Assembly: GCA_022563395.1 (NCBI GenBank)
Contig: JADFNM010000001.1
Location: 526,342-590,341 of the forward strand
DNA from: Patescibacteria group bacterium
GTDB taxonomy: Bacteria > Patescibacteriota > Minisyncoccia > Minisyncoccales > UBA10102
DNA: 64,000 nt
Direction of reading: 5' to 3'
A model generated the notes under the pieces. The model saw nothing but the letters and a program-made list of their open reading frames with translations. It was not told the DNA's origin and searched no databases. The position numbers were made by a program, and so were the translations under genes. Numbering within the stretch: position 1 is the stretch's first letter; every line of letters starts with the position of its first letter. Positions 2,329 to 54,262 of this stretch are shown piece after piece.

Positions 2329-2904
2329 ATGATTTCTTACCTTAAAGGAAAAGTCATAGCCCAAGGCCCAGATTATATCATAACAGAGACCGGGGGGGTA
2401 GGGTACAAGGTTTATATAGCAGAGAGCCGCCTTTCTTCTTACCCCGTGGGCAAGGAGACGGAGCTGTACTGTCATTTGCATATGAAACGAGAAGAAACCT
2501 TAGAGCTTTACGGCGTGGAGTCGCCTCAGGCGTTGGAAGTGTTTGAAACTCTAAACAATATTTCTGGTATTGGGCCAAAAGCTGCTTTGAACATTGCTTC
2601 CTTGGGTACCATGGAGCAGTTAAGGGGGGCAGTTGAAAAAGGGGATGCAAGCTATTTTGCCAAGGTTCATGGGATAGGGCAAAAAAGGATACAAAAGATT
2701 ATCCTGGAGCTTACCGGAAAGCTAAAAAGCCTGGACCAACAAAAGAATGGCAGACCAGAAGAAAAAGAGGCAGTAGATGCCTTGGTTGCTTTGGGATTTT
2801 CTCGGAAAAAGGCAAAGGAAGCGCTCTCTGAGATTTCTTCTGAAATCTCCCCTGTGGAAGAACGGGTGAAACAGGCCTTACGCCACATTCGCATATCTCC
2901 TTAA
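2329..2904 (+). CDS. ruvA: Holliday junction DNA helicase RuvA
   Basis: 191 aa with N-terminus MISYLKGKV and HhH motifs ISGIGPKAA and VHGIGQKRIQKI. The last codons and stop (ATA TCT CCT TAA) lie inside an R1 repeat flank. Confidence 0.9.
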   Translation: MISYLKGKVIAQGPDYIITETGGVGYKVYIAESRLSSYPVGKETELYCHLHMKREETLELYGVESPQALEVFETLNNISGIGPKAALNIASLGTMEQLRGAVEKGDASYFAKVHGIGQKRIQKIILELTGKLKSLDQQKNGRPEEKEAVDALVALGFSRKKAKEALSEISSEISPVEERVKQALRHIRISP

Positions 2905-2936
2905 TGAGATTAAGGATGCCTTAACGAGAGTAAGGA
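2893..2936. repeat. R1 repeat copy (two direct half-sites)
   Basis: ATATCTCC-TTAATGAGATTAAGGA-tgcc-TTAACGAGAGTAAGGA. It overlaps the ruvA stop codon. Confidence 0.7.
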
Positions 2937-2945
2937 TAGCTTTGC

Positions 2946-4229
2946 ATGCTGAATATTCTTAGAAAAGTTACCCCAAAGTTTCTCTTGAGCTGGTACCATT
3001 TTGTGTGGGCGTTAGCCGGGGCTTTGGTGTTCCGCTTTCCTGCCCGTGGCATGGTTGTTATTGGTGTGACAGGAACCAATGGGAAGTCTACCACTGTGGA
3101 CATGATTTCCCGTATTTTTAAGGAAGCTGGTTTAAACAGCGCCTCCATGTCTTCGGTTCGTTTTCAACTGAAAGATACAGAGTGGCGAAATACCATGAAA
3201 ATGACCATGCCAGGGCGTTTTGTCATCCAACAGTTCTTGCGCCAGGCAAAGACTAAGGGATGCACTCACGTGGTTTTAGAAGTGACGTCAGAAGGAATGC
3301 TCCAACATCGCCACCGCTTCATACCCTTTCACACCGCCGTCTTTACCAATCTTTCGCCAGAACACATTGAACGTCATGGTTCTTTTGAAAACTACAAGAA
3401 AACAAAAGGCAAGCTCTTTTCTCTTGCACAGGGAGTGCATGTTATCAATATAGATGATAAGCATACCCCATTCTTTCTTAAGTTCCCCGCACAAGAGATA
3501 TATACCTATGGCATATATCCTAAACGAGATTTAGGAATTCCTAAATCTCGTTTGAGCACCACACATATTCAAGGAGAAGATGTGAGAGAAAATGGGGGGC
3601 TGGATTTTAAAGCGCTGGGAACTAAATTTCATTTAGGACTTCTTGGTAGGTTTAATGTGTACAATGCTTTAGCTGCAATTGCAGTGGCACGATCTCAGGG
3701 AATCTCTCTTAAAGTTTGCAAAAATGCCCTAGAGAAAATGCAGGTGGTTCCAGGAAGAATGGAAGAAGTGATTTCTTCCCCCTTTCGGGTGGTGGTAGAT
3801 TACGCCTTTACCCCGGCTGCCTTAGAAAAAGTATACGAAACGCTTAAGCCCGCTTCTGGAAAGTTGCTCTGTGTTTTGGGAGCAGCCGGCGGAGGACGGG
3901 ATGCTTGGAAACGCCCTATCTTGGGTAAGATTGCATTGCAACATTGCAACACAGTCATCGTAACAGATGAGGATCCGTATGAAGAAAACCCAGAGAAAAT
4001 CATGGATGAGGTGATTGCGGGGGCCAAGGGAGAAGCAGAGAAGGTGCAAGATAGAAGGCAAGCTGTTGCAAAGGCATTGAGCATGGCACAAGCGGGAGAC
4101 ACCGTTGTTATTACCGGAAAAGGGTCTGAGGATTCCATGGCAGTTAAGGGAGGAAAGAAAATTCCTTGGGATGATAGAGAAGTGGTTAAAGAGGAGTGGA
4201 CGAAACTCAAAGAACGTGGTACGCTTTGA
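2946..4229 (+). CDS. Mur ligase family protein (MurE-like, short, TM-anchored)
   Basis: 427 aa. N-terminal hydrophobic helix, then P-loop GVTGTNGKSTT and a C-terminal Mur ligase domain (VITGKGSE). It lacks the N-terminal UDP-binding domain of canonical MurE. Confidence 0.75.
   Translation: MLNILRKVTPKFLLSWYHFVWALAGALVFRFPARGMVVIGVTGTNGKSTTVDMISRIFKEAGLNSASMSSVRFQLKDTEWRNTMKMTMPGRFVIQQFLRQAKTKGCTHVVLEVTSEGMLQHRHRFIPFHTAVFTNLSPEHIERHGSFENYKKTKGKLFSLAQGVHVINIDDKHTPFFLKFPAQEIYTYGIYPKRDLGIPKSRLSTTHIQGEDVRENGGLDFKALGTKFHLGLLGRFNVYNALAAIAVARSQGISLKVCKNALEKMQVVPGRMEEVISSPFRVVVDYAFTPAALEKVYETLKPASGKLLCVLGAAGGGRDAWKRPILGKIALQHCNTVIVTDEDPYEENPEKIMDEVIAGAKGEAEKVQDRRQAVAKALSMAQAGDTVVITGKGSEDSMAVKGGKKIPWDDREVVKEEWTKLKERGTL
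3519..3556. repeat. R1 repeat copy, in frame within the Mur ligase gene
   Basis: CCTAAACGAGATTTAGGAATTCCTAAATCTCGTTTGAG is translated as PKRDLGIPKSRLS. The left flank GCATATATCC resembles the common GCATATCTCC flank. Confidence 0.85.
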
Positions 4230-4504: not shown

Positions 4505-5436
4505 AAATACAAGACATCTACAATAAAGCTATTCAAATGGGCATAGACGCTGACTTTCGCAGCAATGAGTACGTTGCTAAGCTTTTAGAAAGAAAAAAGC
4601 AGAAGTTTGAAAAGCTTTCTGACAAAGAAAAAGAAGAGTTTGACCGAGAGTCCTTAGCCAACCCCTATTCTGACACCAGAGTTTTACATATTGCAGACGA
4701 TAAGGAGATAAAGAAAGTTCTTGTCGGCATTGATATTGATGTAGCTGAACTTCTTTTAGCAAAAAAGTTGGGAGATATTGACCTTGTTATTTCGCACCAT
4801 CCAATGGGTAGGGCTCTATCTGATATGCATGAAGTAATGGAGCTTCAGGCAGATGTGTTTAACCAGTATGGAGTGCCTATTAATGTTGGTGAAGCTTTAA
4901 CGCGAGAAAGGATTGGAGAAGTTGAAAGAGGATTTAATCCGAGGAATAATTGGCGCGTTATTGACGCAGCAAAACTTCTAGGAATTAACCTTATATGCCT
5001 CCATACTGTTGCAGATAATATTTCTGCAAAGGTTGTGAGAGACAAGCTAGCTAAAAGCAATCCAGAACGTATAGAGGACTTGATGGGGGCCCTTGGAGAA
5101 ATTGGAGAATATAAAGAAGCAATATCGCGAGGAGTAGGTCCGAGGATTTTTGTCGGTAGCTCAGAAAACCGTTGTGGTAAGATTTTAGTTGAAATGACAG
5201 GTGGCACGGAACCTTCCCCAAAGGTGTTTGAAAAGATAGCGAGCGCTGGCATTGGCACCATTGTAGGCATGCATATCGCAGAAGAAGGGAAAAAAGAAGC
5301 TGAAGCAGTTTACCTCAATGTAGTTATTGCGGGGCACATGTCTTCTGATTCTATTGGAATGAATCTAATTTTAGATGAAATGCAAAAGCAGGGAGTTGAG
5401 ATTGTGTCTTGCGGAGGACTTTTTAGTGTTTCTTGA
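4501..5436 (+). CDS. NIF3 (NGG1p-interacting factor 3)/YbgI family dinuclear metal centre protein
   Basis: 311 aa. Motif DLVISHHP near the N-terminal third and AGHMSSDS near the C-terminus, as in the NIF3 family. Confidence 0.65.
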   Translation: MKIQDIYNKAIQMGIDADFRSNEYVAKLLERKKQKFEKLSDKEKEEFDRESLANPYSDTRVLHIADDKEIKKVLVGIDIDVAELLLAKKLGDIDLVISHHPMGRALSDMHEVMELQADVFNQYGVPINVGEALTRERIGEVERGFNPRNNWRVIDAAKLLGINLICLHTVADNISAKVVRDKLAKSNPERIEDLMGALGEIGEYKEAISRGVGPRIFVGSSENRCGKILVEMTGGTEPSPKVFEKIASAGIGTIVGMHIAEEGKKEAEAVYLNVVIAGHMSSDSIGMNLILDEMQKQGVEIVSCGGLFSVS

Positions 5437-5445: not shown

Positions 5446-5520
5446 GCTCTCGTAGTTTAACGGATAGAACGCGGGCCTCCGGAGTTCGCGATACAGGTTC
5501 AATTCCTGTCGAGAGCACCA
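5446..5520 (+). tRNA. tRNA-Arg (anticodon CCG), encoded CCA
   Basis: Cloverleaf by hand: acceptor GCTCTCG/CGAGAGC, D stem GTTT/GAAC, anticodon stem CGGGC/GTTCG with loop CT-CCG-GA, T arm ACAGG-TTCAATT-CCTGT, discriminator A plus CCA. Confidence 0.9.
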
Positions 5521-5568: not shown

Positions 5569-5985
5569 ATGAAAAAGAAAACAACAAGGGCAAAAAAGTC
5601 TACCAAAGTTGCCTCAACGGTGACCCGCCGAAGAGGCGGGAAGGTGGCGCCAAAGAAAAAGAAAAATCTAGGCCCGGGGCGCTCTTCGACCTCTCGCCGC
5701 GGAGGGCTCAAGGCACGCGCCCGCGAGAGACAAGCAGTTGTCTCTCGCCCCATCGGCAGGGTTTCTCATTATTTTGACAACATCAAGGTGGCAGCCATAA
5801 AACTCAAGGCCCCCCTAAAGAAAGGAGACACCATTCGTATTGAAGGGGGGACTACCCTGGTAAAAGTAAAGATTTCTTCAATGCAAAAGAACCACAAGCC
5901 CGTGGCCTCTGCCAAGGCCAGAGACGAGATTGGCATTAAGGTTTCAAAGAAAGTCCGTGAGGGGTACCGCGTCTTTAAGGTGTAA
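5569..5985 (+). CDS. Hypothetical protein, basic N-terminus plus C-terminal small beta-barrel (EF-Tu domain 2-like)
   Basis: 138 aa from the ATG. The C-terminal segment IGRVSHYFDNIKVAAIKLKAPLKKGDTIRIEG...GIKV..VREGYRVFKV resembles translation-factor-like barrel proteins. A GC-rich stretch with an 11-bp perfect hairpin (GCGAGAGACAA/TTGTCTCTCGC) lies in the N-terminal part. Confidence 0.55.
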   Translation: MKKKTTRAKKSTKVASTVTRRRGGKVAPKKKKNLGPGRSSTSRRGGLKARARERQAVVSRPIGRVSHYFDNIKVAAIKLKAPLKKGDTIRIEGGTTLVKVKISSMQKNHKPVASAKARDEIGIKVSKKVREGYRVFKV

Positions 5986-5986
5986 C

Positions 5987-6024
5987 TAAATCTCATTTAG
6001 TTGTTAACAACTAAATGAGATTTA
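5987..6024. repeat. R1 repeat copy (perfect 38-bp palindrome)
   Basis: CTAAATCTCATTTAGTTGT|TAACAACTAAATGAGATTTA(A)G has 19-bp perfect arms around GTTAAC. It lies between the stop at 5985 and the GTG start at 6031. Confidence 0.9.
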
Positions 6025-6030
6025 AGCAAC

Positions 6031-7472: not shown

Positions 7473-7513
7473 CTCCTAAATGAAATTAAAGAATCCTTAA
7501 TTTCATTTAGGAG
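7473..7513. repeat. R1 repeat copy
   Basis: CTCCTAAATGAAATTAAAGAATCCTTAATTTCATTTAGGAG has 17 perfect outer base pairs. It lies between the convergent acyP and pyrD genes. Confidence 0.9.
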
Positions 7514-11519: not shown

Positions 11520-11563
11520 CTTAAATGAAATTAAGGAATCCTTAATTTCATTTAGGAGATATG
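11520..11563. repeat. R1 repeat copy with GGAGATATG flank
   Basis: CTTAAATGAAATTAAGGAATCCTTAATTTCATTTAGGAGATATG. A partial half-site GATGAGATTAAGA lies at 11492-11504. Confidence 0.9.
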
Positions 11564-25476: not shown

Positions 25477-25598
25477 TATAATTTGTCGCGAGTGTCAAAC
25501 TTGTTTTGCACGAGCGACACCTTGGTGTTCTTTTACGGTTGGAACTCCCCTCCAAATTTGCAAAAGCAAATTTGGAGAATAAAAAGGGTCCAAATTAG

Positions 25599-28288: not shown

Positions 28289-28346
28289 ACTTAGTTTAAC
28301 TAAGGACGCATTGAAAAGCGCCTCAAAAGGTGATACTTTACTATAT

Positions 28347-31226
28347 ATGGAAGTGAATTTTCCCAAGCTGGAAGAGCAAATCCTCAAGCGCTGGAGACGA
28401 GAAAAAACCTTTGTAAAATCCGTGGCAAGGAGAAAAAACTCTCCTCGCTTTGTGTTTTACGAAGGTCCTCCCACCGCCAACGGGAAACCAGGTTTGCACC
28501 ATGTGGAGTCCCGGTCTTTTAAAGACGTTGTGCTCCGCTACAAAACCATGCGGGGATTTTTTGTTCCGAGGCGTGCTGGGTGGGATACCCATGGTCTTCC
28601 TGTGGAGCTGGAGGTGGAAAAACAACTGGGGCTAAAGTCCAAAAAAGACATTGAAAAGTACGGCATAGCAAAGTTTAACGAGGAGTGCAGAAAGTCGGTG
28701 TGGAAATACAAGAAAGAGTGGGAAGAGCTCACAAACAGGGCGGGAGTATGGCTGGATACGGATAATGCGTATATTACCTATGAAACCCCGTACATTGAAA
28801 CCCTGTGGCAGATAATCAAAACCTGGTGGCAAAAAGGTCTCTTGTACAAAGACTACAAGGTAGTGCCTTTTTGCACGAGGTGCGGCACTCCCTTGTCTTC
28901 CCATGAGCTGGCCCAGGGGTACAAAACCGTAAAAGACCTTTCTGTCTATGTGAAGTTCAGGGCAAAAGGAAAGAAGCTTCCGCAAAAGACCTTCTTTCTT
29001 GCTTGGACCACCACGCCCTGGACCTTGCCTGGTAACGTTGCCTTGGCAGTAGGCAGGAATATTTCCTATGTCTTGGTAAAAAAAGACAATGAGCATTATC
29101 TCATGGCTAAAGGTTTGGCAGAGAAAGTGCTTCTAAAGTATGACGTTGTCAAAACGTTTTCTGGCAAAGACCTTGTGGGAATGAAATATGAGCCCCTGTT
29201 TTCTTTTAAAAAGCCAGAACAAGGAAAAAAGGCATGGGAAGTTGTTGCAGCAGACTTTGTTTCTACTAAGGAGGGAACCGGCATTGTGCATACCGCAGTT
29301 GCCTACGGAGTAGAGGACTTTGAGCTGGGGAAAAAAGAAAATCTTGCCATGCTCCACCTTGTGGACGAGCAAGGGAAGTTTGTAAAGGAAGCCACTCCTT
29401 TTAAAGGAAAGTTTGTAAAGGATGCTGACCCCTTGATTATAGCCGACCTGAAAAAGCGAAACCTCTTGTTCAAAGAGGAGTGGTATGAGCACGAGTATCC
29501 TTTTTGTTGGAGATGCTCCACACCATTGCTGTATTATGCAAAGGAAACATGGTTTATAAACATGCAGAAGGTGAAAAAACAACTCTTGGCAAACAACAGG
29601 AAGATAAACTGGATTCCAGGACACTTAAAGGAAGGCAGGATGGGAGAATGGCTAAAGGAGGTGAAGGACTGGGCGTTTTCCCGAGAACGGTACTGGGGAA
29701 CTCCATTGCCCATTTGGGAGTGCACCATGTGCGAAGAAAAAGAGGTTATCGGCTCTGTAAAAGAACTGCTTTCAAAGAAGCTTTTGCAAAACCCCTACAA
29801 AGGAAAGAAAGATATTGACTTGCACCGGCCGTATGTAGATGAAGTGGAGTTTCCTTGCACAAACTGCAAGGGAATCATGAAGAGGGTAAAGGATGTGGTG
29901 GATGTTTGGTATGATTCTGGTGCCATGCCCTTTGCCCAAAACCACTGGATGGGAGAAAAGAAACCAAAAGAGTTTCCTGCAGACTATATTGTAGAAGCCA
30001 TAGACCAGACCAGGGGTTGGTTCTATACCCTGCTTGCAGTATCCACGCTTCTTGGTTTTGGTCCCCCGTTCAAGAATGTTATCTCTTTGGGTCATCTGTT
30101 GGACGCAAAGGGAGAAAAGATGTCTAAGTCCAAGGGTAACGTGGTGAATCCTTGGGATGTGGCAGACAAATACGGCATGGATGCGGTGCGCTGGTACTTC
30201 TTTTCTGTAAATCATCCCTGGGACCCGAAGCTTTTTTCCGAGCGAGACCTTCAACAGACCTTAAGAAAGTTTATCTTAACCCTGTGGAATTCCCTGGCGT
30301 TCTATGAAACGTATAATCCTAAACGAGATTTAGGAGTTCCTAAATCTCGTTTAAGCGAGAATGTGCTGGATCAATGGATCGTGTCTCGCTTAAACACAAC
30401 CACAGCAGACATGACAAGGAAGATGGACGAATACGATATTACAGGAGCTGCCCGCGCCTTGGAATCTTTTGTTATTGAAAATCTTTCTCTGTGGTACATT
30501 CGAAGATCGAGAAGCAGGTTTCAGAACCCCAAAAGCAAGAAGGAATTGCAGGATGCGGTTTCAACCCTTGGATATGTACTTTTTCAGACAAGCTTGCTTT
30601 CTGCCCCGTTTATTCCTTTTTTGAGCGAGGTTGTGTTTGAGAAAAGCAATGGAAAAGGGAGCGTACACTTGCAGGATTGGCCCTTCGACCCAGCTCAGGA
30701 TAAACCAAAAGCCCCAAAACAAGATAAAAAATTAGAACAGGAGATGGAGAAAGTACGGCACATTGCAAGCAAAGGGCTGGCCTTGAGGGCAAAGGCGGGT
30801 CTTCGGGTGCGCCAACCCTTGGCAAAACTCACCATAAAAGAAAAACTTCAAAAAGAATTGCTGCTTTTGCTTCAAGATGAGTTAAACGTAAAAGAAGTGG
30901 TGGTGAGCTCAAAGCTTAAAGGGGATGTGCAGTTGGACACCAAACTTACGCCTCAATTAAGAGAAGAGGGGCTGGTGCGGGAGTTGTTGCGCCATATTCA
31001 GGGCATGAGAAAAGATGCAGGGTATAAGCCGCGCCATCGCGTTCGGTTGCGCTATGCCGGGACAGCCGACGTCAAAAATCTGTTTTCTCGCCACAAAGAA
31101 ACCCTTGTAAAGATTGGAGGCATCACAGAACTTTTGGAAGGAGACCGCCCCAAACAGGTGTTTGATATTGAGAAAACAATAAAGATTGGAGGAAAGAAGC
31201 TGTGGCTCGGCATCCGCAAGATTTGA
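28347..31226 (+). CDS. ileS: Isoleucine--tRNA ligase
   Basis: 959 aa from ATG 28347. The 1051-aa track ORF is an upstream extension that overlaps argS. Motifs PPTANGKPGLHH, an editing domain, and KMSKSKGN. Confidence 0.95.
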   Translation: MEVNFPKLEEQILKRWRREKTFVKSVARRKNSPRFVFYEGPPTANGKPGLHHVESRSFKDVVLRYKTMRGFFVPRRAGWDTHGLPVELEVEKQLGLKSKKDIEKYGIAKFNEECRKSVWKYKKEWEELTNRAGVWLDTDNAYITYETPYIETLWQIIKTWWQKGLLYKDYKVVPFCTRCGTPLSSHELAQGYKTVKDLSVYVKFRAKGKKLPQKTFFLAWTTTPWTLPGNVALAVGRNISYVLVKKDNEHYLMAKGLAEKVLLKYDVVKTFSGKDLVGMKYEPLFSFKKPEQGKKAWEVVAADFVSTKEGTGIVHTAVAYGVEDFELGKKENLAMLHLVDEQGKFVKEATPFKGKFVKDADPLIIADLKKRNLLFKEEWYEHEYPFCWRCSTPLLYYAKETWFINMQKVKKQLLANNRKINWIPGHLKEGRMGEWLKEVKDWAFSRERYWGTPLPIWECTMCEEKEVIGSVKELLSKKLLQNPYKGKKDIDLHRPYVDEVEFPCTNCKGIMKRVKDVVDVWYDSGAMPFAQNHWMGEKKPKEFPADYIVEAIDQTRGWFYTLLAVSTLLGFGPPFKNVISLGHLLDAKGEKMSKSKGNVVNPWDVADKYGMDAVRWYFFSVNHPWDPKLFSERDLQQTLRKFILTLWNSLAFYETYNPKRDLGVPKSRLSENVLDQWIVSRLNTTTADMTRKMDEYDITGAARALESFVIENLSLWYIRRSRSRFQNPKSKKELQDAVSTLGYVLFQTSLLSAPFIPFLSEVVFEKSNGKGSVHLQDWPFDPAQDKPKAPKQDKKLEQEMEKVRHIASKGLALRAKAGLRVRQPLAKLTIKEKLQKELLLLLQDELNVKEVVVSSKLKGDVQLDTKLTPQLREEGLVRELLRHIQGMRKDAGYKPRHRVRLRYAGTADVKNLFSRHKETLVKIGGITELLEGDRPKQVFDIEKTIKIGGKKLWLGIRKI
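30318..30355. repeat. R1 repeat copy, in frame within ileS
   Basis: CCTAAACGAGATTTAGGAGTTCCTAAATCTCGTTTAAG is translated as PKRDLGVPKSRLS. Confidence 0.85.
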
Positions 31227-37946: not shown

Positions 37947-37949
37947 TTG

Positions 37950-38019
37950 TTGATATTGCCTAAACGTGTTGATATTGCCTAAACGAGATTTAAGCATGAG
38001 TGCTTAAATCTCGTTTAGG
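37950..38019. repeat. R1 repeat copy with a tandemly duplicated left edge
   Basis: TTGATATTGCCTAAACG occurs twice, 19 bp apart (37950-37966 and 37969-37985). It is followed by the palindrome CCTAAACGAGATTTAAGCA-tgag-TGCTTAAATCTCGTTTAGG (37978-38019). Confidence 0.85.
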
Positions 38020-40510: not shown

Positions 40511-40554
40511 GCATATCTCCTAAATGAAATTAAAGAATCCTTAATTTCATTAAG
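40511..40554. repeat. R1 repeat copy with GCATATCTCC flank
   Basis: GCATATCTCCTAAATGAAATTAAAGAATCCTTAATTTCATTAAG. It is preceded by the small GC hairpin GCCCGC-TTCA-GCGGGC (40487-40502). Confidence 0.9.
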
Positions 40555-40566
40555 TTTTTATAGGGC

Positions 40567-41096: not shown

Positions 41097-42035
41097 ATGC
41101 TAATAGATACCCACGGACACGTCAACTTTGCCGCTTTCAAGAATGACGCAAAAGAGGTTCTGCACCGTACCTTGAAAGGAGATACCTGGGTTATAATGCC
41201 AGGCACCCAGTATGCTACCTCAAAGAAAGCAGTAGAAATGGCAGAGCAGTATAGAGAAGGAGTGTATGCCGCAATTGGTCTGCACCCTATTCATCTTTCA
41301 GAAAAGCGCAAGGTTGATGTATTGGAAGTGCAGTCAGAAAACACCAAGGAGGAAGAATGGATGACCTTTGAAACACAAGAGGAGGAGTTTTTGTATGAAA
41401 AGTACAAAGAATTGGGACAAAGCAAAAAGGTGGCGGCAGTCGGTGAGTGCGGCCTGGATTATTACTATGAACCAAAGAGCAAAGAAAGAAGAGAAGCTCA
41501 ACGGCGTAAACAAAAGGCAGCGCTTGCCTTGCAACTGAAGTTGGCAGACGAGCTAAACTTGCCGATTATTTTCCATTGCCGCAAGGCACATGATGATTTG
41601 ATTGAATTTCTAACAAACTACAAACTACAAACTAAAAATTTGAGAGGTGTCGTGCACTGCTACACTGGAGACTTAAAACAGGCAGAGCAGTTCTACAATA
41701 TTGGCCTCTCTTTTGGGTTTAACGGCCTTATTTTCAAAGATGTTCCTGCGCTTCCCAATCCAAAGGAGATTATTGGAGCTTTACCCTTGGAGCGAATTGT
41801 TCTGGAAACTGATTCTCCCTACTTACTGCCGCCCTTGCCCGCCGACCCGGCCTCCGTAGCCACTTCGGCGAAGGGGGCAGCTTTAGCGAAGGCGGGACAG
41901 GCAGGACGCAACGAACCCCTGTTTGTAAAATATGTAGCAGAGGAGATAGCTCGTATTAAAGGTATCTTAGTAGACGAAGTTTCCTCTGCGACAACCAAAA
42001 ACGCCAAAGCCTTATTTCGCTTAAATGAGATTTAG
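41097..42035 (+). CDS. tatD: TatD family metal-dependent deoxyribonuclease/hydrolase
   Basis: 312 aa from ATG 41097 (the track ORF from 40863 is an upstream extension). Motifs IDTHGH, GECGLDYY, HCR, VHCYTG and ETDSPYL. It contains an F2 insertion, and its stop codon lies in an R1 copy. Confidence 0.9.
   Translation: MLIDTHGHVNFAAFKNDAKEVLHRTLKGDTWVIMPGTQYATSKKAVEMAEQYREGVYAAIGLHPIHLSEKRKVDVLEVQSENTKEEEWMTFETQEEEFLYEKYKELGQSKKVAAVGECGLDYYYEPKSKERREAQRRKQKAALALQLKLADELNLPIIFHCRKAHDDLIEFLTNYKLQTKNLRGVVHCYTGDLKQAEQFYNIGLSFGFNGLIFKDVPALPNPKEIIGALPLERIVLETDSPYLLPPLPADPASVATSAKGAALAKAGQAGRNEPLFVKYVAEEIARIKGILVDEVSSATTKNAKALFRLNEI
41832..41906. repeat. F2 GC-rich repeat copy, in frame within tatD (75 nt)
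   Basis: Encodes PLPADPASVATSAKGAALAKAGQAG between the conserved SPYLLP and RNEP. It contains GCGAAGGCGGG (41886-41896) and AGCTTTAGCGAAGG (41879-41892). Confidence 0.7.
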
Positions 42036-42061
42036 GTGTGGATAACTAAATCTCGTTTAAG
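42020..42061. repeat. R1 repeat copy (tatD / mutY-like convergent junction)
   Basis: CTTAAATGAGATTTAGG-tgtggataa-CTAAATCTCGTTTAAG. The tatD stop TAG (42033-42035) lies inside the left arm. Confidence 0.85.
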
Positions 42062-42932: not shown

Positions 42933-45344
42933 ATGACGCGCTACGAGCATGAGAAAATAGAGGCAAAGTGGCAGAAACGCTGGGAGAAAAAGAAGGCCTG
43001 GGAGGTGGATTTGGACAAGGCAAAAAAGCCCTACTATAACTTAATGATGTTCCCCTATCCTTCAGCAGAGGGGCTGCATGTAGGGAATGTCTATGCCTTT
43101 ACCATCTCTGACATTCATGGAAGGTTCCGCAGAATGCAGGGATATGATGTGTTTGAGCCCATGGGGTTTGATGCCTTTGGCATTCATTCAGAAAACTTTG
43201 CCATTAAACAGGGGACGCACCCAAAAGAGCAGACTGCAAAGAACATTACGCACTTCACAAAACAGCTCAAGCAATTGGGAGCTCTTTTTGATTGGCAAAG
43301 AGCAGTTATTACCAGTGACCCCGAATACTACAAATGGACCCAGTGGCTGTTTGTGCAACTCTACAAAGCAGGTCTGGCATATAAGGGGAAAGCCCCTGTT
43401 GACTGGTGTCCTTCTTGCAAGACCGTGCTGGCAGATGAGCAGGTTATAGAAGGGCAATGCGAACGATGTGACACTCAGGTTGTGCAAAAGGAATTGGAGC
43501 AGTGGTTTTTTCGCATTACCAAGTATGCGGACCGCCTATTAAAAAACTTGGAGTGGATTGACTGGACCGAAAAGACCAAACTCGCGCAAAGAAACTGGAT
43601 TGGAAAGGCAGAAGGCACAACCATAAAATTCAAAGTTCCCAATTCCAAGCATGAGGTTGAAGTCTTTACGACGCGTGCCGATACGCTTTACGGCGCAACG
43701 TTTATTGTTTTAGCACCAGAACACCCCATGGTAGCTTCCCTCCAAAACTCAAAAGAGGTTCAAAAGTATGTAGAGAAATCAAAGCAGAGAACCGAACTGG
43801 AAAGAAAAGCCGAGGAAAAAGAAAAAACAGGCGTTTTCTCGGGCCTGTACGCGATAAACCCGCTCAACAAGGAAAAAATTCCTGTTTGGATTGCTGATTA
43901 TGTGTTAATGGGTTATGGAACAGGTGCCTTGTTTGGAGATGCTCACGACGAGCGTGATGTCGAATTTGCTAGAAAGTATAACATTCCACTCAAACCCACC
44001 GTAATCACAGGAGATAAAGAGAAAGACCGGAAGATCTTAAGCCTTGAAGAATGTTTTACAGGTTATGGCACCTTAGTGGACTCTGGTCCATTTACAGGCT
44101 TGACCTCAAAGGAAGCAATAGCAAAAGTGATGGAGTGGCTTATCAGGAAAGGACAGGGCGGGCGGAAAGTAACGTACCACCTCAGAGATTGGCTTATCTC
44201 TCGTCAGCGCTACTGGGGGTCTCCCATCCCTATTATCTATTGCGCAAAATGCGGCACGGTTCCGGTTCCAGAAAAAGACCTTCCGGTAAAGTTACCCGAG
44301 GTAAAGGATTTTCGACCTTCTGGCACGGGTAAGTCGCCCTTGGCTTCCGTTGCGAGCTTTGTGAAAACCAAGTGCCCTCAATGTAAAGGGCCAGCTGAGA
44401 GGGAAACAGATGTTTCAGACACGTTTTTAGATTCAGCCTGGTATTTTTTCCGCTATCCCTCAACCGAGTTTAAAACAAAACCTTTTGATAAGGTAAGGGT
44501 AAAGAAGTGGCTTCCTGTGAATATGTACATTGGAGGGCACGAGCACGCTGTCTTGCACCTCTTGTACACCAGATTCATTACTATGGCCCTAAAAGACATG
44601 GGACACATTTCTTTTGAGGAACCCTTTGAGAAATTCCGCGCCCACGGTTTAATCACCAAAGGCGGGGTAAAGATGTCCAAATCCAGAGGGAACGTGGTGA
44701 ACCCAGACGAGTACTTTGTAAAGTACGGCGCAGACACGGTGCGTACCTATTTAATGTTTCTGGGTCCTCTGGCAGATGGGGGAGGTTGGTCAGACAGGGG
44801 AATCGTTGGCATCTCCCGGTTTTTCAACCGTCTCTGGGTATTTGTGCCTAAATCTCGTTTAGGAGATCCTAAACGAGATTTAGGAAATGAGGCCTTGCGG
44901 CATAGAACAATCAAGAAAGTTACTGAAGACCTAGAGAATCTGCGATATAACACCGCAATTGCAGCTTGCATGGAATATTTTAATGCCCTTCAAAAATCCA
45001 GCAATCCAACAAAAGAAGAGACAGATACTTTACTCATTCTTCTTTCGCCTTTTGCCCCTCATTTAACGCAAGAACTCTGGGAAAAACTTGGCAACAAGGG
45101 AAGTGTGCATGACCAACCTTGGCCAAAGCATGACCCAAAGGCATTGCAGGAAAAAGTTGTTCGGCTTGTGGTACAGGTGAATGGAAGAGTCAGAGAAGTT
45201 CTTTTAGTTTCTCCCGGCATTTCAGAAAAGGAGGCTGTTGCTCGGGCGCTGCAGCAAGAAAAGGTAAAGAAATGGTTCCCCACGGGAAAGCCAAAGAACG
45301 TGGTGTTTGTGAAAGGAAGATTACTAAATCTTGTATCGTATTAA
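42933..45344 (+). CDS. leuS: Leucine--tRNA ligase
   Basis: 803 aa. Motifs MFPYPSAEGLHVGN, a CP1 editing domain, and VKMSKSRGN. Confidence 0.95.
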   Translation: MTRYEHEKIEAKWQKRWEKKKAWEVDLDKAKKPYYNLMMFPYPSAEGLHVGNVYAFTISDIHGRFRRMQGYDVFEPMGFDAFGIHSENFAIKQGTHPKEQTAKNITHFTKQLKQLGALFDWQRAVITSDPEYYKWTQWLFVQLYKAGLAYKGKAPVDWCPSCKTVLADEQVIEGQCERCDTQVVQKELEQWFFRITKYADRLLKNLEWIDWTEKTKLAQRNWIGKAEGTTIKFKVPNSKHEVEVFTTRADTLYGATFIVLAPEHPMVASLQNSKEVQKYVEKSKQRTELERKAEEKEKTGVFSGLYAINPLNKEKIPVWIADYVLMGYGTGALFGDAHDERDVEFARKYNIPLKPTVITGDKEKDRKILSLEECFTGYGTLVDSGPFTGLTSKEAIAKVMEWLIRKGQGGRKVTYHLRDWLISRQRYWGSPIPIIYCAKCGTVPVPEKDLPVKLPEVKDFRPSGTGKSPLASVASFVKTKCPQCKGPAERETDVSDTFLDSAWYFFRYPSTEFKTKPFDKVRVKKWLPVNMYIGGHEHAVLHLLYTRFITMALKDMGHISFEEPFEKFRAHGLITKGGVKMSKSRGNVVNPDEYFVKYGADTVRTYLMFLGPLADGGGWSDRGIVGISRFFNRLWVFVPKSRLGDPKRDLGNEALRHRTIKKVTEDLENLRYNTAIAACMEYFNALQKSSNPTKEETDTLLILLSPFAPHLTQELWEKLGNKGSVHDQPWPKHDPKALQEKVVRLVVQVNGRVREVLLVSPGISEKEAVARALQQEKVKKWFPTGKPKNVVFVKGRLLNLVSY
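44847..44885. repeat. R1 repeat copy, in frame within leuS (perfect 17-bp arms)
   Basis: CCTAAATCTCGTTTAGG-agat-CCTAAACGAGATTTAGG is translated as PKSRLGDPKRDLG. Confidence 0.9.
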
Positions 45345-45345
45345 A

Positions 45346-45380
45346 CTTAATGAAATTAAGGAATCCTTAATTTCATTAAG
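45346..45380. repeat. R1 repeat copy (perfect 35-bp palindrome), flank supplies the glmS SD
   Basis: CTTAATGAAATTAAGGAATCCTTAATTTCATTAAG is followed by GAGATATTCAT-ATG. The sequence AAGGAG ends 8 nt before ATG 45392. Confidence 0.9.
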
Positions 45381-45391
45381 GAGATATTCAT

Positions 45392-50994: not shown

Positions 50995-51043
50995 ATCGCA
51001 TATCTCCTAAACAAAATTAAGGAAAACCTTAATTTTGTTCAGG
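50995..51043. repeat. R1 repeat copy (variant) with GCATATCTCC flank
   Basis: ATCGCATATCTCCTAAACAAAATTAAGGAAAACCTTAATTTTGTTCAGG. Confidence 0.85.
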
Positions 51044-52852: not shown

Positions 52853-54179
52853 AAAAAACTTACAACAACAAGACCCAAAAATTGCAGGATTCATTAAAGA
52901 AGAGCTGCAGCGGAGAAGAGACGGCTTGGAAATGATTCCTTCAGAAAACCATACCTCGCTTGCGGTGCTGGAGGCTTTAGGTTCCATACTTACCGACAAG
53001 TATTCAGAAGGATACCCTGGTAAGAGATACTACGCGGGAAACGAGATTATAGACAAGGTGGAGAGCTTGGCCCAAGAGAGAGCAAAAAAGGCCTTTGGTG
53101 TGCCCCATGCTAATGTGCAGCCTTTGTCTGGGGCTCCTGCAAACAGCGCCGTATATCTTGCGGTATGTGAGCCAGGAGACGTTATTATGGGCCAGAACTT
53201 GGCTGACGGAGGTCACCTTACGCATGGAGCAAAAGGCACCTTTTCCGCACGATTCTACAAAAGTGTCCCATACTATGTTGAGCAGGATGGCTCTATTGAT
53301 TTTGAGAGAGTTCGCAGCGCAGCTTTAAAGAATAAGCCAAAGTTAATATGGGTGGGAGCTTCTGCCTACCCCAAGCTCTTTCCTTTTAAAGAAATGGCAG
53401 AGATTGCAGATGAAGTGGGAGCGTATTTGGTAGCCGACATTGCTCACGTTGCAGGGTTGGTTCTCGCTGGGGCTCATCCAAGTCCCGTTCCTTTTGTGCA
53501 TATCATTACCACCACCACGCACAAGACCCTGCGTGGTCCTAGGGGTGCCATTATTATGGTGACCCAGAAGGGGTTGGATAAGGATGCAGATTTGGCAAAG
53601 AAGGTGGATAAAGCAGTGTTTCCGGCTGGTATTCAGGCCGGTCCCCACAACCACCAGACAGCAGCCATTGCCGTTGCCTTGAAAGAAGCAATGACCCCGG
53701 AGTTTAAAGAGTACGGCCAGCAGATTGTGAGAAATGCAAAGGCGTTAGCTGAATCCTTAAAAGAAGAAGGGCTGCACCTGGTTTCCGGAGGGACAGACAA
53801 CCACATGATACTCGTTGACCTTACCCCATTTGGAAAGGGGACTGGGGTGTTTGCGCAAGATGCCTTAGATAAGGCCGGAATCACAGTAAACAAGAACACC
53901 ATTCCCAAAGATCCTTCCTCTCCCTTTTATCCAAGCGGTGTTCGTTTGGGCACTCCTGCCATTACGACAAGAGGCATGAAAGAAAAAGAGATGGCACAGA
54001 TTGGAAAATGGATTGCAGAGGTTATCCATGAAGTAAAAGGTTATCAGCTTCCAGAAACAAAAGAAGAACGCATTGCGTATCTCAAGCAGTTCAAGAAAGA
54101 CATTGCAGAGAACCAAAAGCTTAAGGATGTAAAAAAGCAGGTAAAGAAACTTTGCAGCAAGTTTCCCCTTCCATATTAA
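52845..54179 (+). CDS. glyA: Serine hydroxymethyltransferase
   Basis: 444 aa from ATG 52845 (8-nt overlap with the MFS gene). Motifs LEMIPSENHTS, YPGKRYYAGNE, and the PLP site TTTTHKTLRGPRG. Confidence 0.95.
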   Translation: MDKKNLQQQDPKIAGFIKEELQRRRDGLEMIPSENHTSLAVLEALGSILTDKYSEGYPGKRYYAGNEIIDKVESLAQERAKKAFGVPHANVQPLSGAPANSAVYLAVCEPGDVIMGQNLADGGHLTHGAKGTFSARFYKSVPYYVEQDGSIDFERVRSAALKNKPKLIWVGASAYPKLFPFKEMAEIADEVGAYLVADIAHVAGLVLAGAHPSPVPFVHIITTTTHKTLRGPRGAIIMVTQKGLDKDADLAKKVDKAVFPAGIQAGPHNHQTAAIAVALKEAMTPEFKEYGQQIVRNAKALAESLKEEGLHLVSGGTDNHMILVDLTPFGKGTGVFAQDALDKAGITVNKNTIPKDPSSPFYPSGVRLGTPAITTRGMKEKEMAQIGKWIAEVIHEVKGYQLPETKEERIAYLKQFKKDIAENQKLKDVKKQVKKLCSKFPLPY

Positions 54180-54183
54180 TTCT

Positions 54184-54262
54184 TTAATCTCGTTTAGTTA
54201 TCCACGCCCCTTCGGGTCTGAAGCCCTTCAGGGTCTGAACGACTTAATGAGATTAAGTTTAG
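54184..54262. repeat. Composite: R1 arms separated by a GC-rich F2-like insert
   Basis: The left arm TTAATCTCGTTTAG (54184-54197) and right arm CTTAATGAGATTAAG (54243-54257) are split. The insert is GCCCCTTCGGGTCTGAAGCCCTTCAGGGTCTGAACGA, itself an imperfect direct duplication. Confidence 0.7.

What the first reader, a model, noticed from the sequence alone, without database searches (positions are those of the whole stretch)
2893..54262. Dispersed nested-palindrome repeat family R1: at least 14 copies in 64 kb with no associated transposase
**Element.** A 35-45 bp element built from two inverted arms of about 17 nt recurs at 2893, 3519, 5987, 7473, 11520, 26594, 30318, 37978, 40511, 42020, 44847, 45346, 51006 and 54184.
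- The arm consensus is roughly CCTAAAYGARATTWAGG.
- Observed variants are TAAACGAGATTTAGG, TAAATGAGATTTAGG, TAAATGAAATTAAGG and TAAACAAAATTAAGG.
- Several copies are perfect palindromes: 5987-6024 has 19-bp arms and no spacer, and 44847-44885 and 45346-45380 have 17-bp arms.

**Structure.** Each arm is itself a small palindrome (CCTAAA-N5-TTTAGG). The element can therefore fold as one long hairpin or as two short ones. Both arm orders occur (ACGAGAT..ATCTCGT and ATCTCGT..ACGAGAT). Many copies share an outer flank GCATATCTCC on one side and GGAGATATG on the other.

**Distribution.** Copies lie at gene 3' ends, between convergent genes, and inside ORFs. The density and sequence conservation argue for a recently active or selectively maintained REP/MITE-like element.
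Basis: seen in the sequence. Interest (0 to 1): 0.75.

Follow-up and report, generated by a model that had tools for sequence, protein, structure and literature searches.

The report
REP-like hairpin repeats in a CPR genome
A tiny-genome Patescibacteria (CPR) bacterium carries many copies of a 40-55 bp double-hairpin repeat, in gene gaps and translated in frame inside essential genes; related contigs place the same repeats on both sides of a REP-type tyrosine transposase gene, so it is most likely a REP/REPIN-style element family not reported for this phylum in the library I searched.

Summary
All 14 listed copies exist. I add a degenerate 15th copy at 27978-28019 and three lone arms. The arm motif occurs 28 times against 0.1 expected. 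Six or more independent assemblies carry the copies unchanged.

The window comes from a Wildermuthbacteria-like CPR genome. Ten copies fill short intergenic gaps. Five lie in frame inside a Mur ligase, ArgS (twice), IleS and LeuS, in the only reading frame without stop codons.

Arm-to-arm pairing is kept through many compensatory changes. Related genomes hold lineage-specific versions, often at the same sites, and some sites are empty.

The window has no transposase. However, marine contigs retrieved only by the repeat pattern carry a 239-aa HUH/Tyr protein flanked on both sides by the same repeat family. It matches Pfam Y1_Tnp, and its best fold match is the E. coli REP-associated transposase. 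Two further homologues sit between their own palindromes.

Best reading: a REP/REPIN-RAYT-type system with Rickettsia-RPE-like coding insertions. It lacks the GTAG/CGTC tag. Whether the window's own genome has a partner gene remains untested.

The parts
2899..2935 (.). Two-arm copy with a 3-nt loop; the arm cores are in direct rather than inverted order. It overlaps the ruvA stop codon (TAA 2902-2904) and ends 10 nt before the Mur-ligase ATG at 2946. Its left flank is cGCATATCT.
3519..3556 (+). Two-arm copy in frame inside the Mur ligase gene (2946-4229). It is translated as YGIY-PKRDLGIPKSRLS. Its left flank TATGGCATATAT is shared with an in-ORF copy in the marine locus L078.
3621..3637 (-). 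Lone arm (ACTAAATTTCATTTAGG, 16 of 17 matches to the family) inside the Mur ligase gene, 65 nt after the full copy.
5985..6026 (.). Two-arm copy with the 8-nt loop TGTTAACA and perfect 19-21 bp arms. It fills the gap between the stop codon of a 138-aa ORF (5985) and the amino-acid permease start (6031).
7475..7511 (.). Two-arm copy (TGAAA core) between the convergent acylphosphatase (+) and DHODH (-) genes.
11520..11556 (-). Two-arm copy (TGAAA core). Its right end TTTAGGAGATATG lies 14 nt before the ATG at 11571. It folds into a hairpin of -23.8 kcal/mol.
26596..26632 (+). Two-arm copy (CCTTAA-type arms) in frame in the ArgS N-terminus, translated LLNEIKDSLISFE. It is shared with L006 and absent from L008 and L097, a net gain of 33 nt.
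27978..28019 (+). Degenerate two-arm copy in frame in the ArgS C-terminal part (NLKRLSYSHLKETKL). Its loop is TATTCACA (read with the last base of arm 1, the DnaA-box-like 9-mer TTATTCACA at 27994-28002). L008 has a perfect 24-bp-arm palindrome at the same site.
28289..28305 (.). Lone arm ACTTAGTTTAACTAAGG directly after the ArgS stop codon; it is conserved in L097.
30318..30355 (+). Two-arm copy in frame in IleS at the catalytic/anticodon-domain linker, translated N-PKRDLGVPKSRLS. Homologues carry lineage-specific palindromic peptides at this same site.
37947..38019 (-). Two-arm copy at 37978-38019 (8-nt loop CATGAGTG, 19-bp perfect arms) between AI-2E and a TP_methylase gene. It is preceded by a 19-nt tandem duplication (TGTTGATATTGCCTAAACG x2) that includes the element's first 7 nt.
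40519..40555 (+). Two-arm copy (TGAAA core) 31 nt after the MetRS stop codon, with left flank cGCATATCT.
42020..42061 (.). Two-arm copy with loop TGTGGATA (read with the first base of arm 2, TGTGGATAA at 42037-42045, a perfect DnaA-box 9-mer). It overlaps the last 16 nt of tatD and ends 5 nt from the convergent HhH-GPD gene. The hairpin is 25 bp, -33.6 kcal/mol.
44847..44884 (-). Perfect 17+17 palindrome in frame in LeuS at the linker homologous to the IleS site, translated V-PKSRLGDPKRDLG.
45345..45381 (-). Two-arm copy that fills the LeuS-GlmS gap. Its end AAGGAG lies 8 nt before the glmS ATG. Orthologous copies are present in L096 and, decayed, in L095.
51006..51043 (+). Two-arm copy (CAAAA/TTTTG core) 9 nt before the Sua5/TsaC-like gene ATG. 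The site is empty in L095 and orthologous in L096.
54182..54258 (.). Long-loop copy between GlyA and FolD. The arms at 54182-54198 and 54242-54258 are separated by a 43-nt loop (54199-54241): TATCCAC followed by a unique 36-nt G+C-rich segment (54206-54241). With the last base of arm 1 the loop start reads TTATCCACG at 54198-54206. The site is empty in L095, which has a 20-nt spacer.

Best explanation
**What it is.** The repeats are a REP/REPIN-type family.
- Each 17-nt arm (CCTWAA-N5-TTWAGG) is a small hairpin unit.
- Two arms, usually in inverted order and 3-8 nt apart, form a doublet that folds into a long hairpin of 17-25 bp.
- An asymmetric flank (cGCATATCT on one side, AACTAT on the other) belongs to the element.

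**How it most likely works (inferred).**
- The doublets are, or were, copied around the chromosome as single-stranded hairpin DNA by a chromosomal HUH/Tyr (Y1, RAYT-like) transposase acting in trans. That gene is itself bracketed by the repeats.
- In a very compact genome, copies persist only where they are tolerated. These places are the short gaps between genes, where the arm end TAAGGAG can double as a ribosome-binding site, and permissive linkers inside proteins.
- Inside proteins the single stop-free frame is translated as a 13-17 aa hydrophilic loop (PKRDLGxPKSRL or LNEIKxSLIS).
- Once inserted, copies are inherited vertically for long periods. Arm pairing is preserved by compensatory change, and sites are re-used or overwritten by lineage-specific variants.

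**Shown versus inferred.**
- Shown here: the family, its structure and covariation, the in-frame coding copies, filled versus empty orthologous sites, and the association with a Y1 gene in related contigs.
- Inferred: the mobilising activity, and the presence of a partner gene in this particular genome.
For: **The family is real.**
- 28 arms are found against 0.1 expected. Profile and repeat-finder scans agree.

**Structure.**
- The long hairpins fold at -20 to -34 kcal/mol, with z-scores of -5 to -8.
- On 27 copies from 11 loci, the long helix is 92.6% paired. It has 60 double-change cells against 21 in shuffles (0 of 500 shuffles reach this), with 3-4 pair types at the core positions.
- The short helices are 92.0% paired, with 29 double-change cells against 12.5.
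- Core complementarity is 4.4 of 5 within a copy and 2.5 of 5 between copies.

**The copies are insertions.**
- GlyA-FolD and Sua5-upstream are empty in L095.
- The ArgS N-terminal site is empty in L008 and L097.
- The site upstream of LeuS is filled in L096 and empty in the window.

**In-frame copies.** They occupy only the stop-free frame, at length-variable linkers of IleS and LeuS.

**Partner protein.**
- L078/L099 was pulled in by the DNA pattern alone.
- It has a 239-aa ORF that matches Pfam Y1_Tnp at 26.2 bits, above the 23-bit cut-off.
- The HUH motif (NHFH) and the Tyr motif (YINVINP) are present.
- The AlphaFold model has pLDDT 94, and its best PDB match is 4er8, the REP-associated tyrosine transposase bound to a REP hairpin.
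- The gene is flanked on both sides by two-arm elements, and the upstream flank holds the commonest 16-mers of that genome sample.
- It keeps a fixed chromosomal context: 11 contigs carrying it were read, and the 7 places shown, from several samples, have the same context.
- A 32%-identical paralogue in L046 is also flanked by elements.
- Homologues P0392 and P0400 sit between their own lineage-specific palindromes.
- L078 carries the window's exact CGAGA variant, including the flank TATGGCATAT, in frame at the 3' end of the 311-aa longest ORF that matches DprA; the ENA gene calls place it at the DprA/ComM junction.
Against: - No Y1 gene lies in the window or in the 7 kb to its left. The rest of the 671-kb genome could not be read.
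- At the locus where relative L105 has its Y1 gene (TsaE-Y1-PolA), the window genome has none.
- The taxonomy of the marine contigs is not established.
- The REP hallmark GTAG/CGTC head is absent.
- The NCBIfam RAYT equivalog scores only 18 bits against a cut-off of 80.
- P0241 lacks the RAYT N-terminal Thr and has NPGQ instead of NP(L/V)(R/K)xG.
- One third of the copies are intragenic, against the definition of REP.
- Near-identical strains show no insertion polymorphism, and orthologous copies are old. Current mobility is therefore unproven.
- The two elements flanking the Y1 gene carry their loop motif in the same orientation, not an inverted one.
Confidence: 0.68

Rival explanations
1. 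The hairpins are host-function sites kept by selection rather than mobile DNA. Examples would be mRNA 3'-end or processing and stabilising hairpins, translational-coupling structures that hide or present the Shine-Dalgarno sequence, or binding sites for a nucleoid or replication protein. The 8-nt-loop class, read with one flanking arm base, gives the DnaA-box 9-mer TTATCCACA. This is partly compatible with the main explanation, because REPs are often co-opted.
For: - Pairing is conserved by compensatory changes in old, vertically inherited copies.
- Of the 10 intergenic copies, 6-7 end 4-17 nt before a start codon, with TAAGGA(G) in the stem.
- In L078 nearly every gene junction of an operon carries one.
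- The loop TGTGGATAA / TTATCCACA recurs in the window, L096, L078 and L031.
Against: - Five copies lie inside essential ORFs, where a terminator or processing site would be harmful.
- None fits an intrinsic terminator.
- Orthologous gaps in relatives work without the element.
- The core sequence differs freely between lineages, which argues against one conserved binding protein.
- DnaA-box-like 9-mers are not enriched in the window overall: 16 against 13 expected.
- This reading does not explain the Y1-gene association.
Confidence: 0.15
2. It is a classical MITE: a deletion derivative of a DDE-type insertion sequence, with terminal inverted repeats and target-site duplications. Under this reading the coding insertions would be the same kind of event as Rickettsia RPEs or Correia elements.
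For: - The element is small, dispersed and palindromic.
- In-frame ORF insertions resemble those reported for RPEs.
- A possible ACTA or TTAA duplication can be read at two filled/empty pairs.
Against: - No consistent target-site duplication appears at any filled/empty comparison.
- The ends are asymmetric, not terminal inverted repeats.
- No DDE transposase was seen in about 300 kb of related loci. The only transposase-like gene found with the repeats is of the HUH/Y1 type.
- The element is 40-55 bp, against 100-150 bp or more for RPE and Correia elements.
Confidence: 0.07
3. The arms are DNA-uptake sequences, or another word spread by molecular drive. They would accumulate by point mutation and biased uptake and recombination in naturally competent CPR cells, with lineage-specific 'dialects'.
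For: - The density is about one arm per 2.3 kb.
- Variants at the same sites are lineage-specific.
- The arrangement as inverted pairs near gene ends resembles Neisseria DUS pairs (from my own knowledge).
- In the marine contigs the Y1 gene sits beside comFC-dprA-comM.
Against: - Twenty-six of the 28 arms are in tight pairs rather than single.
- Copies differ from empty orthologous sites by insertions of 33-75 nt, not by substitutions.
- An asymmetric 8-12 nt flank travels with the arms.
Confidence: 0.05
4. The palindromes arise and are perfected locally, by template switching (quasi-palindrome correction) or slippage, without any dedicated enzyme. The apparent family would then only reflect a shared Shine-Dalgarno-like seed.
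For: - Perfect arms persist in diverged orthologous copies.
- Partial duplications lie next to copies, at 37947-37985 and in L096 LeuS.
Against: - Identical 17-mers plus a shared asymmetric flank occur in unrelated genes and in different organisms.
- The expected chance count is 0.1.
- The flanking of Y1 genes is unexplained.
Confidence: 0.05

Closest known systems
REP / REPIN elements with their RAYT (REP-associated tyrosine transposase; E. coli TnpA-REP, PDB 4ER8; Nunvar 2010 PMC2817692; Bertels & Rainey 2011 PMC3116915; Bertels 2017 PMC5581495)
   Same: - A short palindromic unit occurs in high copy.
- Units pair in inverted order into a hairpin-forming doublet.
- A chromosomal Y1 HUH gene is bracketed by the repeats, and its flanks hold the genome's commonest 16-mers.
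- Repeat sequence is lineage-specific and changes together with the associated protein.
- Palindromy is preserved by complementary mutations.
- Inheritance is long-term and vertical.
- The best fold match of the associated protein is the solved RAYT.
   Different: - The host is a CPR/Patescibacteria lineage.
- The arms are A+T-rich 17-mers only 3-8 nt apart, giving a doublet of 37-42 bp against about 100 bp for a REPIN.
- There is no GTAG/CGTC head.
- One third of the copies are intragenic and translated.
- The associated protein is about 240 aa, in a family that scores below the NCBIfam RAYT cut-off and lacks some RAYT-specific residues.
- The partner gene has not yet been seen in this genome.
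Rickettsia palindromic elements (RPE; Ogata et al. 2000, as summarised in PMC10969869)
   Same: - Palindromic repeats are inserted in frame into unrelated housekeeping genes of a reduced genome.
- Each family encodes a conserved peptide.
- Insertions are tolerated at permissive, presumably surface, positions.
   Different: - RPEs are about 100-150 bp, and no transposase is known for them.
- The elements here are 38-55 bp and are linked to a Y1 gene.
- Insertion sites are shared across a clade, with lineage-specific sequence variants.
- Sequence similarity to RPEs was not tested.
IS200/IS605 insertion sequences and their hairpin-only derivatives (TnpA of IS608, ISDra2)
   Same: - The enzyme has the HUH/Tyr fold (fold-search ranks 2-14).
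- Recognition elements are small hairpins on one strand, with adjacent asymmetric guide or cleavage sequence.
- No target duplication is made.
   Different: - The Y1 gene is about 90 aa longer.
- It keeps a fixed chromosomal context across samples rather than existing as multiple IS copies.
- There is no tnpB.
- Complete repeat doublets, not distinct left and right ends, flank the gene.
- No conserved tetranucleotide target was identified.

Membership tests
REP/REPIN-RAYT system | Short (20-40 nt) imperfect palindrome dispersed in many copies | tested here: met
   28 arms against 0.1 expected. There are 15 doublets in 64 kb, and they supply the commonest 16-mers.
REP/REPIN-RAYT system | Units paired in inverted orientation that fold into one long hairpin (REPIN) | tested here: met
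   - Fold energies are -20 to -34 kcal/mol.
- Covariation supports the 17-bp inter-arm helix, with 0 of 500 shuffles reaching the observed value.
- Exceptions with direct or chimeric arms are the copy at 2899, the copy at 27978, L031 and L043.
REP/REPIN-RAYT system | A Y1 (HUH + Tyr) transposase gene flanked by the same repeats | tested here: met
   - Met in the related marine contigs L078/L099 (P0241) and L046/L110 (P0413), which carry this repeat family.
- Also met for homologues with other palindromes, in L105 and L108.
- For the window's own genome this could not be tested. There is no such gene in the window or in the 7 kb to its left.
REP/REPIN-RAYT system | RAYT protein signature (curated NCBIfam equivalog; N-terminal Thr; NP(L/V)(R/K)xG next to the Tyr) | tested here: inconclusive
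   - Pfam Y1_Tnp passes its cut-off (26.2 against 23).
- The best fold match is the RAYT structure 4er8.
- The family consensus reads YIHxNPL.
- NF047646 scores only 18 bits against a cut-off of 80.
- P0241 has YHVFNRG and NPGQ.
REP/REPIN-RAYT system | Conserved GTAG or CGTC tetranucleotide head next to the stem (Di Nocera 2013, PMC3733652; Nunvar 2010) | tested here: not met
   The aligned copies and flanks show cGCATATCT / AACTAT, and no GTAG or CGTC.
REP/REPIN-RAYT system | Extragenic location | tested here: not met
   5 of the 15 doublets and 1 lone arm lie inside ORFs, in frame.
Rickettsia palindromic elements (RPE) | In-frame insertion into unrelated protein-coding genes, encoding a conserved peptide | tested here: met
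   PKRDLGxPKSRL occurs in the Mur ligase, IleS and LeuS. LNEIKDSLIS occurs in ArgS. SKRDLGAPKSRLG occurs in the marine locus in the DprA-matching ORF.
Rickettsia palindromic elements (RPE) | Element length of about 100-150 bp and membership of one of the described RPE sequence families | tested here: not met
   The length is 38-55 bp. Sequence comparison with RPE consensus sequences was not done, because none was available to the tools.
MITE of a DDE transposon | Terminal inverted repeats plus a target-site duplication of fixed length | tested here: inconclusive
   Four filled/empty comparisons show no consistent duplication. The relatives are too diverged (82-88% aa identity) to fix the boundaries to the base.
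DNA uptake sequences (DUS/USS) | A single short word, mostly solitary, created by substitutions rather than insertions | tested here: not met
   26 of 28 arms are in tight pairs. Filled sites differ from empty ones by insertions of 33-75 nt.
TIGR arrays (Tas systems, reported in CPR) | Tandem arrays of 5-15 units next to a Nop-domain Tas gene | tested here: not met
   The copies are solitary and dispersed, and there is no Nop-domain gene. The definition is taken from PMC12045711.
Intrinsic (rho-independent) terminators | G+C-rich stem followed by a T tract | tested here: not met
   None of the 7 copies in 36-56 kb is among the 39 terminator-like sites found there.

The most novel reading that the evidence does not exclude
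The repeat-transposase pair is a domesticated system that keeps rewriting the same chromosomal sites, including linker loops of aminoacyl-tRNA synthetases, with the lineage's current hairpin variant.
- Across the clade, IleS, LeuS and ArgS would then carry a short peptide and RNA hairpin that co-evolves with a Y1 enzyme.
- One class of the hairpins would distribute DnaA-box loops (TTATCCACA) and Shine-Dalgarno stems around a minimal genome. That would give the element a role in replication control or in operon translation.
Probability: 0.15. Interest if true: 0.8.

Novelty: new variant of a known kind. Interest (0 to 1): 0.6.

Why it matters
- REP/REPIN-RAYT systems have been studied mostly in Proteobacteria. 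In the library I searched, no paper links REPs, RAYTs or palindromic repeats of this kind with CPR/Patescibacteria.
- If the reading holds, ultra-reduced CPR genomes, which carry very little non-coding DNA, still maintain a hairpin repeat family at about one doublet per 4 kb.
- These genomes also let the repeats be translated inside essential enzymes. This joins two phenomena so far described separately: REP-RAYT systems and Rickettsia-type coding palindromes.
- It also offers practical markers. Lineage-specific repeat words could help with binning and strain typing of CPR MAGs.
- It warns annotators that short conserved 'PKxxLGxPKxxLG' inserts in CPR proteins are repeat-derived.
- The roughly 240-aa Y1 family has 13,022 representatives at 50% clustering. 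It is a ready set for testing hairpin-specific single-strand DNA enzymes.

Tried and rejected
- **GTDB species representatives.** A scan with a two-arm pattern gave only two single hits, in Algoriphagus and Alistipes, which I take to be chance.
- **JGI metagenomes.** It was mostly filled by an unrelated tandem repeat from one sample (Ga0224511), and only about 8 loci were relevant.
- **Synthetic peptide query.** I tried to census in-ORF copies with a 52-aa query made of the encoded peptides. The first attempt failed on an E-value limit. The second returned 'no candidate shares three words' and consumed the last homologue search.
- **Viral contigs.** No match.
- **Rfam.** No family covers the copies; only a tmRNA and two tRNAs were found.
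- **TIGR-Tas arrays.** Considered because they occur in CPR, and rejected because they are tandem arrays beside Nop-domain genes.
- **Intrinsic terminator role.** Rejected.
- **Target-site duplications.** The attempt was inconclusive at the available divergence.
- **ArgS as a gain/loss marker.** The ArgS N-terminal site in L097 is confounded, because that relative's ArgS is only 47% identical and the gene appears to have been replaced.
- **Finding the Y1 gene of the window's own genome.** The tools only reach about 10 kb around known proteins. The syntenic TsaE-PolA junction, where L105 has its Y1 gene, holds none in the window genome.
- **DnaA-box enrichment.** The window as a whole is not enriched: 16 against 13 expected.
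- **Structure of a host protein.** I skipped a structure prediction to show the insert as a surface loop. The alignments already show that the sites are length-variable linkers.

Full report
**1. The observation**

The 17-nt arm CCTAAAYGARATTWAGG, allowing two mismatches, matches 28 times in the window. Shuffles give 0.10 on average and never more than 1.

The 14th locus (54182-54258) has two arms separated by a 43-nt loop. A profile search and the general inverted-repeat finder return the same loci. The family also accounts for all of the most frequent 16-mers in the window.

A looser arm definition adds three things:
- a degenerate doublet inside ArgS (27978-28019);
- a lone arm at 3621-3637;
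- a lone arm at 28289-28305.

The same DNA, copies included, is present at 99.7-100% identity and without indels in contigs from at least six independent assemblies. It is therefore not an assembly artefact.

**2. Source and gene context**

IleS and LeuS homologues place the window in a Wildermuthbacteria-like lineage of Patescibacteria (CPR). The identical LeuS is on a 671,501-bp NCBI contig. All sizeable ORFs are housekeeping genes, and none is a transposase.

Ten doublets occupy, and largely fill, short intergenic gaps:
- Two overlap stop codons (ruvA and tatD).
- Two sit between convergent genes.
- Six or seven end 4-17 nt before a start codon, with the arm end TAAGGA(G) in Shine-Dalgarno position. 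The clearest case is AAGGAG-8 nt-ATG of glmS.

Five doublets are inside ORFs and in frame:

| Gene | Encoded peptide |
|---|---|
| Mur ligase | YPKRDLGIPKSRLS |
| IleS | NPKRDLGVPKSRLS |
| LeuS | VPKSRLGDPKRDLG |
| ArgS N-terminus | LLNEIKDSLISFE |
| ArgS C-terminal part | NLKRLSYSHLKETKL |

CCTAAA-type arms have stop codons in two of the three frames, and so do CCTTAA-type arms. Every in-ORF copy uses the one open frame. The IleS and LeuS copies lie at the homologous linker between the catalytic and anticodon-binding domains. That region varies in length across homologues.

**3. Anatomy**

- Each arm is CCTWAA-N5-TTWAGG, a 6-bp mini-stem with a 5-nt core.
- Two arms are separated either by 3-4 nt (AAT, ATT, AATT, AGTT, AGAT) or by an 8-nt loop (TGTGGATA, TATTCACA, TGTTAACA, CATGAGTG).
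- Oriented alignment shows an asymmetric flank: cGCATATCT (or TATGGCATATAT) on one side and AACTAT on the other.
- The long hairpins fold at -20 to -34 kcal/mol, with z-scores of -5 to -8.

Covariation was measured on 27 short-loop copies from the window and ten other loci:

| Structure | Paired cells | Double-change cells, observed vs shuffled | Shuffles reaching observed |
|---|---|---|---|
| 17-bp inter-arm helix | 92.6% | 60 vs 21 | 0 of 500 |
| Two 6-bp mini-helices | 92.0% | 29 vs 12.5 | 0 of 500 |

The core positions of the long helix show three or four different Watson-Crick pair types. The nested-palindrome description is therefore correct. Core complementarity is a property of each copy: 4.4 of 5 within copies against 2.5 of 5 between copies.

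A few copies have direct or chimeric arms (2899, 27978, L031, L043). This suggests that the arm is the basic module.

**4. Relatives**

Syntenic DNA from four related genomes was compared:
- L096/L097, with IleS 88% identical to the window's and LeuS 84%;
- L095, with LeuS 82% identical;
- L006 and L008, with IleS about 80% identical.

*Shared sites.* L096/L097 has doublets at five of the window's sites: the tatD end, LeuS internal, LeuS-glmS, Sua5 upstream and IleS internal. These copies are 82-92% identical to the window's, much like the flanking coding DNA at 75-87%. The differences are largely compensatory. Examples are TGAAA/TTTCA against CGAAA/TTTCG, and TCTCG/CGAGA against TCCGA/TCGGA, with both copies perfect palindromes.

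*Empty sites.*
- GlyA-FolD and Sua5-upstream are empty in L095. Its GlyA-FolD spacer is 20 nt with an ordinary AAGGAAG ribosome-binding site.
- The ArgS N-terminal site is empty in L008 and L097, a net difference of 33 nt.
- A site upstream of LeuS is filled in L096 but empty in the window.

*Same site, different sequence.*
- At the IleS site, L006 has CCTAAACCCGGTTTAGG-TGTT-CCTAAACCGGGTTTAGG.
- L008 has CCTAAGCTTAGCTTAGG-AGCT-CCTAAGCTAAGCTTAGG. The same variant recurs elsewhere in L008, at the AI-2E/TP_methylase gap that is also occupied in the window.
- At protein level, 20 of 240 IleS and LeuS homologues carry PKxxLGxPKxxLG-type palindromic peptides at these two sites only.

The elements are therefore insertions. 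They are old at many sites, their pairing is maintained, and over deeper divergence the occupant of a site matches the lineage's own variant. No consistent target-site duplication could be read.

**5. The partner**

The single JGI-metagenome scan with a generic two-arm pattern was mostly consumed by an unrelated repeat. It also returned eight relevant loci.

*P0241 in L078.*
- L078 is a Tara Oceans contig that has an element at almost every gene junction.
- It carries the window's exact CGAGA variant with the flank TATGGCATAT, in frame at the 3' end of the 311-aa longest ORF that matches DprA (SKRDLGAPKSRLG). The ENA gene calls place this copy at the DprA/ComM junction.
- Its 239-aa ORF (P0241) matches Pfam Y1_Tnp above the curated cut-off (26.2 against 23 bits). 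It matches the NCBIfam RAYT model weakly (18 bits against a cut-off of 80).
- It contains YHVFNRG, the HUH motif NHFHLLL and the tyrosine motif YINVINP.
- Its family has 13,022 representatives at E <= 0.001. In the family alignment the second His of the HUH motif and the Tyr are invariant, the first His is kept in at least 90% of sequences, and the consensus reads YIHxNPL.
- An AlphaFold model built on that alignment has pLDDT 94. Its best match among solved structures is 4er8, the E. coli REP-associated tyrosine transposase bound to a REP hairpin. The ISDra2 and IS608 TnpA structures follow.
- The gene is flanked on both sides by two-arm elements of the TTATCCACA-loop class. One ends 41 nt before the start codon and the other begins 2 nt after the stop codon. 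The upstream flank contains the commonest 16-mers in 20 kb of that genome.
- Eleven contigs carrying it were read. The 7 places shown, from several samples, have the same context: Y1-ComFC-DprA-ComM-YraN-TPR-TPR-RpoB.

*Other homologues.*
- A 32%-identical paralogue (P0413) is likewise bracketed by elements. Its HUH motif is degenerate (RYH), and its source labels it COG1943/K07491. It co-occurs with P0241 in three samples.
- P0392 lies in L105, a locus syntenic with the DNA just left of the window. It sits between copies of its own palindrome, ATGTGTGAGGCCCGGCCTCACACAT.
- P0400 sits between copies of CAGGTAATCnGATTACCTG.

A Y1 gene bracketed by the genome's repeat, with repeat and protein changing together, is the organisation that defines RAYTs (PMC2817692; PMC5581495).

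**6. Interpretation**

The best-supported reading is a REP/REPIN-type family served in trans by a RAYT-like Y1 transposase. I inferred three steps rather than showing them:
- that the enzyme copies the hairpins;
- that the window's genome encodes one;
- that any copy is still mobile.

Several facts stand against simple membership:
- There is no GTAG/CGTC head.
- The arms are very short, A+T-rich and close together.
- One third of the copies are intragenic.
- The protein family lies outside the curated RAYT equivalog.
- The flanking elements carry their loop in the same orientation.
- The junction where L105 has its Y1 gene is empty in the window genome.

The coding copies behave like Rickettsia palindromic elements, but they are three times shorter.

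Rival readings:
- Host-function roles (mRNA structure, ribosome-binding-site presentation, DnaA-box loops) are possible additions rather than alternatives. None of the copies looks like an intrinsic terminator, and DnaA-box-like words are not enriched overall.
- The DNA-uptake-sequence reading is disfavoured, because the arms are paired and the copies are insertions.
- The DDE-MITE reading is disfavoured, because there are no terminal repeats, target duplications or parent insertion sequence.
- TIGR arrays are a different architecture.
- Rfam has no family for the copies.

**7. Novelty and verdict**

No paper in the searched library connects REP, RAYT or similar palindromic repeats with CPR.

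I rate this a new variant of a known kind: a REP-RAYT-like system in Patescibacteria with unusually small nested doublets and frequent translated insertions in essential genes. Interest is moderate to high at 0.6. The decisive missing piece is a scan of the complete 671-kb genome for the Y1 gene and a genome-wide census.

Noticed in passing
window 42037-42045, 54198-54206, 27994-28002; L096 2032-2040; L078/L099 loops: The 8-nt loop class of the element, read with one flanking arm base, gives TGTGGATAA / TTATCCACA, the consensus DnaA box. It is perfect at 42037-42045 and twice in L078, and one mismatch off elsewhere. Both elements that bracket the Y1 gene P0241 are of this class. DnaA-box-like 9-mers are not enriched in the window as a whole (16 against 13 expected).
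   Followed up: partly
window 54206-54241: A 36-nt G+C-rich segment (GCCCCTTCGGGTCTGAAGCCCTTCAGGGTCTGAACG) with its own small repeats sits inside the loop of the GlyA-FolD copy. It is unique in the window and may be a nested insertion.
   Followed up: partly
window 37947-37985: A 19-nt tandem duplication (TGTTGATATTGCCTAAACG x2) joins flank DNA to the first 7 nt of the element at 37978. A similar partial duplication (GATTTAGGCAGAGA x2) follows the LeuS copy in L096 at 4910-4945. These may be footprints of slippage or re-insertion.
   Followed up: no
L097 4144-5826 versus window 26531-28288: In a relative whose IleS is 88% identical, the adjacent ArgS is only 47% identical, although the gene ends and the synteny are kept. 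This looks like replacement of most of the gene by recombination or horizontal transfer.
   Followed up: partly
window 16765-17919: This ORF combines an ATP phosphoribosyltransferase (HisG) domain with an AsnC/Lrp-type HTH and ligand-binding domain, which is an unusual fusion.
   Followed up: no
IleS homologues P0009, P0016-P0018 and others: Many related CPR IleS proteins are 1,130-1,240 aa long and carry an extra histidine-phosphatase (PF00300) domain. The window's IleS, at 954 aa, lacks it.
   Followed up: no
window 25596-25951 (-), 5446-5517 (+), 57874-57957 (-): A tmRNA and two tRNA genes (Rfam gathering hits). None is associated with an element copy.
   Followed up: yes
L011, L014, L020-L025 and about 35 more loci from Ga0224511/Ga0224510: An unrelated high-copy repeat (GCGCCATTTTCCTAAACGGTGTTTAGGAATCCTAAATCACATTTCGGAATCCTAAAAGT, tandem TCCTAAA units) from one JGI metagenome filled most of the 80-locus quota of the pattern scan.
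   Followed up: no
L107 8210-10759: Another homologue of the Y1 protein (P0249) lies directly after a reverse transcriptase (RVT_1) and bAvd / 23S_rRNA_IVP genes, a DGR-like neighbourhood. No obvious flanking repeat pair was found there.
   Followed up: no
L099 958-4897 (also L098, L100-L104): In the marine genome the Y1 gene sits immediately upstream of the competence genes comFC, dprA and comM. In L105 its homologue lies instead between tsaE and a dCMP deaminase and polA, so the gene's position is not conserved between lineages.
   Followed up: partly
L110 3700-3736 and 3997-4033: Two more two-arm copies lie inside a gene of more than 1,900 aa in the marine genome, so coding insertions are not special to the window organism.
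   Followed up: no
L004 6786-6814 (Algoriphagus marinus) and L005 3401-3429 (Alistipes MAG): These are single exact matches to the two-arm pattern in two Bacteroidota genomes. I judged them to be chance or unrelated because each genome has only one.
   Followed up: no
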